DNA from: Escherichia coli
GTDB taxonomy: Bacteria > Pseudomonadota > Gammaproteobacteria > Enterobacterales > Enterobacteriaceae
Reading direction: 5' to 3' (one strand)
Length of the DNA stretch: 64,000 nt
Assembly: GCF_041886205.1 (NCBI RefSeq)
Contig: NZ_CP169029.1
The notes beneath the pieces were generated by a model that did no database searches, was not told the DNA's origin, and saw only the letters and a list, made by a program, of their open reading frames with translations. Made by a program: the position numbers and the translations under genes. Positions 63,345 through 63,451 of the stretch are shown here, one piece after another. Every line of letters starts with the position of its first letter. Within the stretch, counting starts at the first letter, position 1.

Positions 63345-63451
63345 TACAATGCGGGCGAAAAATAAGGATGCCCCGTTAGGGGCGTTAGCTGAGTTTTTCG
63401 CGAAAAATTCAGCTAACGCTCTCTGTAATAGTCAAATCCAGGGGATTTACC

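What the first reader, a model, noticed from the sequence alone, without database searches (positions are those of the whole stretch)
63371..63419. Long near-perfect palindrome in the purH leader
The sequence gcgttagctga-gtttttcgcgaaaaat-tcagctaacgc (63382-63419) can form an extended hairpin, preceded by a short ccccgttagggg hairpin. It lies between the PurR operator and the purH start codon, and I cannot assign it to a known element. It may be a structured leader or a protein-binding palindrome.
Basis: seen in the sequence. Interest (0 to 1): 0.2.

Follow-up and report, generated by a model that had tools for sequence, protein, structure and literature searches.

The report
Conserved hairpin in purH mRNA leader
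The palindrome is real: it is a two-hairpin structure in the untranslated leader of the E. coli purHD (purine synthesis) mRNA, kept with compensating base changes across many enteric bacteria yet absent from the RNA-family catalogue, so it is probably an undescribed regulatory or stability element of unknown mechanism.

Summary
Window 63371-63382 (CCCC-GUUA-GGGG) and 63382-63419 (17 pairs, loop CGCG, one G.U) form two adjacent hairpins. This is the strongest hairpin-type inverted repeat in the 64-kb window.

The window is E. coli. The element lies between the PurR box and TACAAT -10 (63329-63350) and the purH ATG (63452), so it falls inside the inferred 95-nt purHD leader.

It is single-copy and unannotated, and has no Rfam match. 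It is identical in 5381 of 5419 E. coli genomes, whereas a nearby intergenic control segment is identical in only 1063 of 5101.

The same architecture sits upstream of purH in Escherichia, Citrobacter, Enterobacter, Cedecea, Erwinia, Yersinia and about 60 metagenomic leaders. The apex varies (hairpin 34-85 nt), the lower stem covaries, and GUUA/UAAC, UGA and a 3' GCUCU tract are invariant or nearly so. It is absent from Photorhabdus, Morganella, Vibrio, Aeromonas and Pasteurellaceae.

Best reading: a cis-acting structured 5'-UTR RNA that acts after PurR-controlled initiation, on translation or mRNA stability, probably through an unidentified factor.

The mechanism is unproven. A BoxA-like Nus site, an RNase III site, an attenuator and a DNA-level role remain rivals.

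The parts
63329..63344 (+). PurR operator (pur box) GCGCAAACGTTTTCGT of the purHD promoter
   Evidence: Read. It is the reverse complement of the purH-purD PurR motif ACGAAAACGTTTGCGC in Cho et al. 2011, Table 1. It is conserved in all enterobacterial loci.
63345..63350 (+). Inferred -10 hexamer TACAAT, directly abutting the PurR box. The GC-rich discriminator GCGGGC follows.
   Evidence: Read. TA(C/A)AAT is conserved next to the pur box in all loci. The consensus scan found no canonical -35/-10 pair, so the promoter assignment is an inference.
63357..63370 (+). Inferred transcription start (G63357 or A63358) and the single-stranded 5' segment GAAAAAUAAGGAUG
   Evidence: Inferred from the position 7-8 nt after the -10 hexamer; no experimental TSS could be retrieved. 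A GGA two to three nt before P1 recurs in most orthologues.
63371..63382 (+). P1: 4-bp G-C hairpin CCCC-GUUA-GGGG, stacked with no linker on P2
   Evidence: It is present in most orthologues with variable loops. Compensatory variants are CCUC/GAGG (L004) and CCCG/CGGG (L016). It is missing in one clade (L116, L119, L121, L127, L129, L159).
63382..63419 (+). P2: long hairpin with 17 pairs including G63393.U63408 and loop CGCG at 63399-63402. G63382 can pair with C63419 or belong to P1.
   Evidence: The orthologous hairpins fold with z = -3.1 to -7.8. The lower 16 pairs are 86.3% paired across 53 sequences, against 27-39% in slid controls.
63418..63425 (+). Conserved 3' tract GCUCUCUG. GCUCU is invariant or nearly so in all clades. 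It resembles BoxA and is complementary to the Shine-Dalgarno sequence.
   Evidence: at positions 1-5, U3 and U5 are invariant and G1, C2 and C4 are present in 36 of 37 unique tails. RNAalifold pairs CUCUCU with the SD region in the E. coli clade, without covariation.
63434..63448 (+). Local hairpin AAAUCC-AGG-GGAUUU containing the Shine-Dalgarno sequence AGGGGA (63440-63445)
   Evidence: MFE of the whole leader. The sequence is conserved only in the E. coli clade and does not covary.
63452..63997 (+). 5' part of purH (182 codons; the ORF runs off the window end)
   Evidence: RefSeq annotation: purH. (99% to 69% identity to PurH of 80 species).

Best explanation
The palindrome is the core of a cis-acting RNA structure in the 5' untranslated leader of the purHD mRNA. 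Transcription from the PurR-repressed promoter (inferred +1 near 63357) gives a leader of about 95 nt. In it, a short G-C hairpin (P1, 63371-63382) stacks directly on a long hairpin (P2, 63382-63419). An invariant GCUCU pyrimidine tract follows, then about 14 nt, then the Shine-Dalgarno sequence. I propose that it works after initiation and independently of PurR. The rigid P1/P2 module, with its sequence-invariant lower stem (GUUA/UAAC, UGA) and 3' GCUCU tract, would be a recognition platform for a trans-acting factor and/or would place the CUCUCU tract to pair with the SD (AGGGGA). Either way it would set ribosome access and hence the lifetime of the purHD message. Shown: the structure, its position downstream of the promoter elements, its conservation and covariation, and its restriction to purH. 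Inferred: the transcription start, that selection acts on the RNA rather than the DNA, and every step of the effect on translation or decay.
For: The structure is real and exceptional. It lies downstream of the PurR box and -10 and upstream of the purH SD. Orthologous leaders from 16 named species and about 60 metagenomic contigs were fetched through anchors that do not constrain the 5' arm, apex or P1. These anchors were PurH protein and the promoter sequence; for the alignment the hairpin's 3' end (TAAC + GCUCU-like) and a GTTA/GCTA 5' anchor were required. The leaders carry the same P1-P2-GCUCU layout with an apex of variable length. Lower-stem pairs show G-C/C-G/U-A, A-U/G-C/G.U, U-A/G-C and C-G/U-A alternation. 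Overall 86.3% of cells are paired against 27-39% when partners are slid. There are 85 double-change cells against 29.9 in shuffles, and the covariation score is 0.266 against 0.128 (0 of 500 shuffles reach either). Ten diverse orthologues fold with z = -3.1 to -7.8. There is one copy per locus, always sense to purH, scoring 57 bits on the + strand and 19 on the - strand in the window. Within E. coli the 59-nt segment is identical in 5381 of 5419 genomes, while a control intergenic 59-mer 120 nt upstream is identical in only 1063 of 5101. Many orthologous hairpins have mismatches, internal loops and large asymmetric apices. A folded single strand tolerates these; a DNA cruciform competing with perfect duplex would not. 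RNAalifold pairs CUCUCU with the SD in the E. coli clade. The purH mRNA half-life was about 10 min in wild type in Potts et al. 2017.
Against: No experiment was found that places the 5' end of the mRNA or tests the leader. G.U and A.C oppositions are balanced in the lower stem (35 versus 34). The + strand RNA is the more stable one in only 48 of 74 orthologues, so the usual signature of selection on one RNA strand is weak. The count of pairs with double changes (8) does not exceed shuffles (138 of 500). GUUA/UAAC, UGA and GCUCU never covary, so for these the pairing is untested. The CUCU:SD helix has no covariation and is not predicted outside the E. coli clade. P1 is absent from one clade. 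No trans-acting factor is identified.
Confidence: 0.55

Rival explanations
1. BoxA-type Nus-factor site. The hairpin would play the role of the rrn-leader boxB stem and the following (C)GCUCUU(U)A tract would be a BoxA bound by NusB/NusE. This would recruit the Nus complex to RNA polymerase on purHD, repressing translation and promoting Rho termination as at suhB, or preventing termination.
For: GCUCU follows the hairpin in nearly every orthologue, including the critical C4 (36 of 37). About 10 of 37 unique tails read GCUCUUUA, a full match to BoxA positions 1-8, and about 6 read GCUCUUA as in phage lambda boxA (the lambda sequence is from my own knowledge). BoxA consensus and critical positions come from Baniulyte et al. 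2017. The order hairpin-then-BoxA is that of rrn leaders. BoxA acts on translation at distances up to 100 nt from the SD.
Against: The 3' half of BoxA (AACA) is not conserved. The E. coli clade reads GCUCUCUGUAA, with C at position 6. T6C is one of the two changes in the inactive suhB boxA double mutant. G1-C2 are paired in the base of P2. purH is not in the BoxA gene list of Baniulyte et al.. Similarity of the leader to the rrnE leader is not above shuffles. BoxA does not explain the invariant GUUA/UAAC and UGA.
Confidence: 0.1
2. RNase III processing site. The long duplex (17 bp, up to 21 bp if GGGG pairs with CUCU; 25-35 bp in other genera) would be cut by RNase III. This would remove the 5' end of the leader and change purHD mRNA decay or translation, as in the pnp, rnc or adhE leaders.
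For: Its length is close to the ~22 bp accommodated by RNase III (Altuvia et al. 2018). Long imperfect stems are conserved in all clades. The position in a 5' UTR is typical of known regulatory RNase III sites (own knowledge).
Against: It is not among the cleavage sites listed by Gordon et al. 2017. Their only purH-rrsE entry is assigned by the authors to the rRNA precursor. purH is not mentioned in the main text of Altuvia et al. 2018, and their supplement was not available. purH is repressed in rich medium, so absence from those lists is weak evidence. RNase III does not explain the invariant lower-stem sequence and GCUCU tract.
Confidence: 0.1
3. DNA-level element. The palindrome would act in the double helix or in transient single-stranded DNA, for example as a cruciform or topological buffer next to the very strong divergent rrnE promoters, or as two inverted protein-binding sites.
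For: G.U and A.C oppositions are balanced, and in 26 of 74 orthologues the opposite strand would fold better, as expected if neither RNA strand is specifically selected. The AT-rich centre (TATATA apex in many clades) is what favours cruciform extrusion (own knowledge). purH lies next to an rrn operon in E. coli. The enterobacterial purH contigs also end a few hundred bases upstream of purH, which may reflect a repeated rrn operon there (inference).
Against: The distance between the conserved arm ends varies from 34 to 85 nt, which excludes a fixed dimeric operator. Many orthologues have mismatches, bulges and 10-50-nt asymmetric apices that make extrusion against a perfect duplex very unfavourable. 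The flanks are asymmetric (GGGG on the 5' side, CUCU on the 3' side) and could pair only as G.U in + strand RNA. Genera that lack the element (Photorhabdus, Morganella, Acerihabitans) show the same contig ends upstream of purH and keep the upstream DnaA-box block.
Confidence: 0.12
4. Transcription attenuator. P2 followed by the U/C-rich tract would be a weak intrinsic terminator or pause signal that aborts a fraction of purHD transcripts in the leader.
For: The stem base is G-C rich (GCG/CGC) and is followed directly by UCUUUAUAU, UCUUUUAUU or UCUUAUUUA in non-E. coli clades. In terminators the conserved parts are likewise the stem base and the tail, while the apex varies (own knowledge).
Against: The E. 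coli tail UCUCUGUAAU is poor, and the scan does not call a + strand terminator there. No purH-associated 3' end appears in the held Term-seq tables of Adams et al. 2021. No alternative antiterminator pairing with covariation was found. No conserved leader peptide exists: the short ORFs starting at the GGAUG differ in frame and length between genera (my reading).
Confidence: 0.08
5. Neutral or chance palindrome, or remnant of a mobile palindromic repeat (REP/MITE-like), without function.
For: Palindromes are common in intergenic DNA, and the apex looks like a region of free insertion and deletion.
Against: It is single-copy in E. coli (two 'places' per genome, consistent with the palindrome matching both strands at one site) and single-copy in 571 kb of related contigs. 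Its position is orthologous across families, with covariation. It is far less polymorphic in E. coli than neighbouring intergenic DNA.
Confidence: 0.03

Closest known systems
rrn-leader boxB-boxA and the suhB 5'-UTR BoxA (Nus factor sites; Baniulyte et al. 2017, PMC5725501)
   Same: A hairpin is followed at once by a GCUCU(UUA) tract in a 5' leader a few tens of nt before the start codon. C4 is conserved. Many non-E. coli orthologues match BoxA positions 1-8.
   Different: The 3' half of BoxA is not conserved, and the E. coli clade deviates at positions 6, 8 and 9. The first two BoxA-like nucleotides are paired in the stem. The most conserved part here is the lower stem itself (GUUA/UAAC, UGA), which has no counterpart in BoxA elements. 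No Nus dependence has been shown.
RNase III-processed leader hairpins (rpsO-pnp, rnc, adhE leaders)
   Same: A long (17 to 35 bp), partly imperfect duplex in a 5' UTR, conserved among enterobacteria.
   Different: No cleavage is recorded in the data I could read. The E. coli stem is shorter than two helical turns unless extended by G.U pairs.
Structural 5'-UTR stabilisers and scanning barriers (ompA 5' stem-loop; hslVU/clpQY leader stem-loop, PMC2681174)
   Same: A stable hairpin in the leader of a housekeeping operon that could hinder 5'-end-dependent RNase E attack. The purH mRNA half-life was about 10 min in wild type in one dataset.
   Different: About 14 unpaired nt precede P1, so it is not a 5'-terminal hairpin. 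A purely structural role does not explain the invariant stem sequence and GCUCU tract.
ZTP riboswitch (pfl motif), the known RNA regulator of purH in other phyla
   Same: The same regulated gene and the same position in the purH leader.
   Different: No sequence or structure match in Rfam at E up to 10. The element here is a simple stacked-hairpin module without the pseudoknotted two-domain aptamer. The internal-loop positions are fully Watson-Crick in E. coli, so there is no conserved pocket.

Membership tests
Any Rfam 15 family (including ZTP/pfl, purine and other riboswitches, and enterobacterial leaders) | Match to the family covariance model at or near its gathering score | tested here: not met
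   (63374-63432, E-value threshold 10). The only hit is mir-725 at 23.8 bits against a gathering score of 76, a generic hairpin match.
BoxA (NusB/NusE binding site) | 11-nt consensus GYUCUUUAANA with the critical C at position 4 | tested here: inconclusive
   Positions 1-5 are invariant or nearly so, including C4. Positions 6-7 are mostly U; positions 8-11 are not conserved. E. coli reads GCUCUCUGUAA, where only positions 1-5, 7 and 11 match specified consensus bases (position 10 is unspecified), with C at position 6.
BoxA (NusB/NusE binding site) | Nus-factor association and nusB/nusE-dependent expression | not testable with these tools
   purH is not in the published BoxA gene list. No ChIP data were accessible.
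Intrinsic terminator / attenuator | G+C-rich stem directly followed by a run of U | tested here: not met
   no + strand terminator-like site is called in E. coli; the tail is UCUCUGUAAU. Non-E. coli tails are more U-rich but were not scanned.
Intrinsic terminator / attenuator | RNA 3' ends in the leader in vivo | tested here: not met
   no purH entry in the held supplementary tables of Adams et al. 2021. This is a limited test because it covers only the held text and their growth conditions.
RNase III substrate | About 22 bp of largely continuous duplex | tested here: inconclusive
   17 bp in E. coli. It reaches 21 bp only with GGGG:CUCU, including two G.U pairs. It is longer in other genera.
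RNase III substrate | rnc-dependent cleavage in vivo | tested here: not met
   not in the Gordon et al. 2017 lists. The Altuvia et al. 2018 supplement was not held.
Dispersed palindromic repeats (REP/BIME, ERIC, MITE) | Many copies per genome | tested here: not met
   a median of two 'places' per genome, consistent with the palindrome matching both strands at one site; one copy per locus and none elsewhere in the window.
CsrA-bound leader | GGA motifs plus CsrA crosslinking and CsrA-dependent translation | tested here: not met
   AAGGAUG lies before P1 and there is a GGA in the SD. However, purH has no CLIP-seq peak, appears in none of the four target lists, and shows unchanged translation efficiency in a csrA mutant (Potts et al. 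2017, Supplementary Data 2).
PurR operator (DNA) | 16-bp palindrome ANGCAAACGTTTNCNT with abutting half-sites | tested here: not met
   The genuine operator is 63329-63344. The hairpin arms resemble half-sites only loosely (GCTAAC versus GCAAAC). They are everted and lie 16 to about 70 bp apart.
Leader-peptide attenuator | Conserved short ORF in the leader | tested here: not met
   The ORF from ATG 63368 (MPR-stop) changes length and frame, or is absent, in other genera (my reading). The 49-aa ORF at 63349 starts inside the -10 hexamer.

The most novel reading that the evidence does not exclude
The P1-P2-GCUCU module could be a dedicated, Enterobacterales-specific regulatory RNA for the AICAR-to-IMP step, giving purHD a second control layer independent of PurR. 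One version is recruitment of the Nus complex through a degenerate BoxA. Another is binding of a protein or small molecule that reports purine or one-carbon status. Either would make it the enteric functional counterpart of the ZTP riboswitch that controls purH in other phyla.
Probability: 0.1. Interest if true: 0.75.

Novelty: new member of a known kind. Interest (0 to 1): 0.4.

Why it matters
purHD is a textbook PurR-regulated operon in the best-studied bacterium, yet its leader carries a structure under clear purifying selection that is not in Rfam, not annotated in RefSeq, and not discussed in any paper I could search. If it controls translation, decay or elongation, E. coli purine synthesis has a post-transcriptional layer that current regulatory models omit. 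The invariant lower stem and GCUCU tract also predict an unidentified RNA-binding partner. The element is small, single-copy and easy to mutate, so the question is directly testable.

Tried and rejected
- **Rfam scan** at E up to 10: nothing relevant.
- **Repeat family:** rejected. The element is single-copy.
- **Minus-strand terminator:** the scan flags GCCCCTAACGGGGC + ATCCTTATTT on the - strand. The U-rich tail is not conserved outside the E. coli clade (e.g. ...GACGTCAAGGATGCCCC), and no convergent gene exists. Rejected.
- **Leader peptide or start-stop ORF:** AUG-UAA occurs in the 3' arm of one clade and MPR-stop in E. coli. Frames and lengths are not conserved. Rejected.
- **CsrA site:** sequence-plausible, but there is no CLIP peak and no translation-efficiency change.
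- **Origin from the adjacent rrnE leader:** local alignment is no better than shuffles.
- **Strand test** by G.U versus A.C counts and by +/- strand folding energies: inconclusive.
- **Four-segment switch** (CCCC / GGGG / CUCU / SD): GGGG:CUCU pairing is possible, but CUCU stays invariant where GGGG changes (L004, Yersinia). No covariation supports it.
- **Literature:** searches for purH leader, dyad symmetry, UTR, RNase III, Term-seq, CsrA and the sequence itself gave no direct report. The 1989/1990 purHD sequence papers and several TSS supplements were not held, so an early mention of 'dyad symmetry' there cannot be excluded.
- **Tool errors:** two early calls failed on coordinates or string length and were repeated correctly.

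Full report
**1. What is in the sequence**

- The window is E. coli. Region 63150-63560 matches 5419 of 5426 complete E. coli genomes at 90-100% identity (95% or more in all but five), and the ORF downstream is annotated purH.
  - ccccgttagggg lies at 63371-63382. This is P1: a 4-bp G-C stem with loop GUUA.
  - gcgttagctgagtttttcgcgaaaaattcagctaacgc lies at 63382-63419. This is P2.
- The repeat finder reports 21-nt arms that are 95% complementary. The only non-Watson-Crick position is G63393/T63408, a G.U pair in + strand RNA.
- Region 63365-63425 folds as RNA at -29.7 kcal/mol, against -15.1 +/- 2.9 for dinucleotide shuffles (z = -4.96, 0 of 200 as good).
- Among all hairpin-type inverted repeats in the 64-kb window it ranks first.

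**2. Where it sits**

- The 16S rRNA gene of rrnE and its P1/P2 leader lie to the left on the minus strand. purH is therefore divergent from rrnE.
- The PurR box GCGCAAACGTTTTCGT is at 63329-63344. It is the reverse complement of the purH-purD motif in Table 1 of Cho et al. 2011 (PMC3159470).
- TACAAT abuts the PurR box at 63345-63350.
- The box-plus-TACAAT block is conserved in all enterobacterial loci examined. It was specific enough to serve as a search anchor.
- From this I infer a transcription start near G63357 and a 95-nt leader. This is an inference for two reasons.
  - The consensus promoter scan finds no canonical -35.
  - I could not retrieve an experimental TSS.
- The purH ATG is at 63452.
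- The leader layout is: 14 unpaired nt (GAAAAAUAAGGAUG), P1, P2 with no linker, GCUCUCUG, 14 nt, the SD AGGGGA (63440-63445), then the ATG.

**3. Not a repeat, and not annotated**

- The 59-nt segment 63366-63424 occurs at one locus per E. coli genome. The two 'places' per genome are consistent with the palindrome matching both strands at one site. No annotated feature lies beneath it.
- Rfam 15 gives no meaningful match at E up to 10.
- No paper in the searchable library prints the sequence or discusses a purH leader structure.

**4. Conservation within E. coli**

- The hairpin segment is at least 99% identical, which for 59 nt means identical, in 5381 of 5419 genomes.
- A control 59-mer of intergenic DNA 120 nt upstream (63246-63304) is identical in only 1063 of 5101 genomes. 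It is 90-95% identical in 1794.
- The hairpin is therefore under much stronger constraint than the neighbouring non-coding DNA.

**5. Conservation between genera**

- I fetched purH loci from 80 species through the PurH protein.
- I also fetched 80 metagenomic contigs through the promoter anchor CGCAAWCGTTTTCGCTACAAT. This anchor leaves the leader itself unconstrained.
- The P1-P2-GCUCU layout is present in:
  - Escherichia albertii, Citrobacter (two species), Phytobacter, Enterobacter (three) and Superficieibacter;
  - Pluralibacter, Pseudescherichia, Cedecea, 'Klebsiella sp. BIGb0407', Erwinia persicina and three Yersinia species;
  - roughly 60 of the 68 distinct metagenomic leaders.
- The hairpin spans 34 nt in the E. 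coli clade and up to 85 nt elsewhere.
- The apex is free to vary. In many non-E. coli leaders it carries a YTCTATATAGAR mini-palindrome.
- Ten diverse orthologues fold with z between -3.1 and -7.8.
- A covariance model of the lower stem and flanks gives these results.
  - It finds exactly one copy per positive locus, always sense to purH.
  - It finds nothing else in 571 kb of flanks.
  - It finds nothing elsewhere in the window.
  - It finds nothing in the purH loci of Acerihabitans, Photorhabdus, Morganella, Vibrio, Aliivibrio, Aeromonas, Pasteurellaceae, Orbaceae or more distant Gammaproteobacteria.
- Some metagenomic leaders with the same promoter also lack the element: L084, L128, L101/L105/L136/L157, L102 and L110.

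**6. Covariation**

- I built a gap-free alignment of 53 distinct sequences, anchored on the hairpin ends (A1). The named 16-pair lower stem gives these figures.
  - 86.3% of cells are paired, against 27.5-39.0% when the 3' partners are slid by 1-3 columns.
  - There are 85 cells with changes on both sides, against 29.9 +/- 6.9 in shuffles (0 of 500 reach it).
  - The covariation score is 0.266 against 0.128 (0 of 500 reach it).
- Pair types by position from the stem base (numbering, where G of GUUA is position 1; counts from A1):
  - position 5: C-G 21, G-C 16, U-A 6, U.G 4;
  - position 10: A-U 29, G.U 15, G-C 9, never unpaired;
  - position 11: U-A 28, G-C 11;
  - position 12: C-G 20, U-A 20.
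- Caveats:
  - The sequences are related.
  - The simple count of pairs with a double change (8) does not exceed shuffles (138 of 500).
  - Positions 6 and 8 are mismatched (C.U, C.C, G.G) in whole clades.
  - GUUA/UAAC, the UGA/UNA triplet and the 3' GCUCU never or almost never vary, so their pairing cannot be tested.
- P1 is mostly CCCC/GGGG with a free loop. It has two clear compensatory variants: CCUC/GAGG in L004 and CCCG/CGGG in L016. It is missing in one clade.

**7. RNA or DNA?**

- The usual strand signature is weak. G.U and A.C oppositions are 35 versus 34. The + strand RNA is the more stable in 48 of 74 orthologues (mean difference -1.6 kcal/mol), including 10 of 11 in the E. coli clade.
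- Against a DNA-level role:
  - The distance between the conserved arm ends varies more than two-fold, which excludes a fixed dimeric operator.
  - Many orthologues have internal loops and 10-50-nt asymmetric apices. A cruciform competing with perfect duplex could hardly tolerate these.
  - The conserved flanks GGGG (5') and CUCU (3') are not complementary as DNA and could pair only through G.U in + strand RNA.
  - Genera that lack the element still seem to have the same rrn neighbourhood.
- I therefore favour the RNA reading but keep a DNA-level role at about 0.12.

**8. Mechanism: what was tested**

- *Terminator/attenuator.* No + strand terminator is called in E. coli. No purH 3' end appears in the held tables of Adams et al. 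2021. There is no conserved leader peptide and no covarying alternative helix.
- *RNase III.* The stem length is borderline: 17 bp, or 21 with GGGG:CUCU. RNase III accommodates about 22 bp. The site is not in the Gordon et al. 2017 lists. The Altuvia et al. 2018 supplement was not available.
- *CsrA.* AAGGAUG before P1 and the GGA in the SD look suitable. However, purH has no CLIP peak and no change in translation efficiency in Potts et al. 2017. The wild-type half-life there is about 10 min.
- *BoxA.* The invariant tract after the hairpin begins GCUCU.
  - In about 10 of 37 unique tails it reads GCUCUUUA, matching positions 1-8 of the BoxA consensus GCUCUUUAACA, including the critical C4.
  - The order hairpin-then-BoxA is that of rrn leaders.
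  - Against it: the 3' half is not conserved, and the E. coli clade has C at position 6.
  - Also against it: purH is not in the published BoxA list, and the leader is not significantly similar to the rrnE leader.
- *Anti-SD.* CUCUCU can pair with CAGGGG of the SD. RNAalifold predicts this helix in the E. coli clade. Both partners are invariant there, and the helix is not predicted in the other clades.

**9. Verdict**

- The finding is a real, conserved, purH-specific, two-hairpin leader element found in several Enterobacterales families: at least Enterobacteriaceae, Erwiniaceae and Yersiniaceae.
- The pattern is a variable apex, a covarying middle stem, and an invariant lower stem plus 3' tract. 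This points to a structured RNA that is also read sequence-specifically, by a protein or another RNA.
- I commit to a cis-acting post-transcriptional role in translation and mRNA stability at 0.55. The rivals are listed separately.
- It is best filed as a new member of a known kind (cis-regulatory or structural 5'-UTR RNA), not a member of any described family.

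Noticed in passing
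window 63234-63242 (+): A perfect consensus DnaA box, TTATCCACA, lies between rrnE P1 and the purH promoter. The block ACACAGAGTTATCCACAA is conserved upstream of purH in Phytobacter, Enterobacter, Superficieibacter, Pluralibacter and Pseudescherichia. It is also conserved in genera that lack the hairpin (Acerihabitans, Photorhabdus, Morganella).
   Followed up: no
window 63351-63357 (+): A GC-rich discriminator (GCGGGCG) lies between the inferred -10 and +1 of the purH promoter. It is also GC-rich in other genera (GCCCCCG, GCCCGCG, GCCGGGC). This feature is typical of ppGpp/DksA-sensitive promoters.
   Followed up: no
window 62959-63190 (-): Rfam family Ysr197 ('Yersinia sRNA 197') matches at 117 bits, below its gathering score of 167. 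The match covers the rrnE P1/P2 leader region next to boxA TGCTCTTTAACAA (about 62967-62979, - strand). That family therefore looks like an rRNA-operon leader fragment.
   Followed up: partly
L012, L083, L090, L092, L103 and many other loci (apex of the purH hairpin): Outside the E. coli clade the hairpin apex repeatedly carries a YTCTATATAGAR mini-palindrome, with a pyrimidine-rich 5' side and a purine-rich, SD-like 3' side (e.g. CUUCUUAUAUAGAAGAG). It is duplicated in some Yersinia- or Serratia-like leaders and absent from E. coli.
   Followed up: partly
window 63370-63383 (-): On the minus strand the P1 complement GCCCCTAACGGGGC followed by ATCCTTATTT is called terminator-like. The U-rich tail is not conserved outside the E. 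coli clade, and no convergent gene is present.
   Followed up: yes
window 5355-5390, 5651-5692, 14421-14450: Other strong hairpin-type inverted repeats in the window: 16-nt arms at 100% complementarity (TATGAATAAACCCATC/GATGGGTTTATTCATA), 17-nt arms at 88%, and a terminator-like AAGAAAGCCGGATGA/TCATCCGGCTTTTTT.
   Followed up: no
L017 (Acerihabitans), L020 (Photorhabdus), L022 (Morganella) purH leaders: Genera that lack the motif still have leaders of 105-131 nt with other, unrelated predicted hairpins between the PurR box/-10 and the SD. A structured purH leader may be more general than this particular motif.
   Followed up: no
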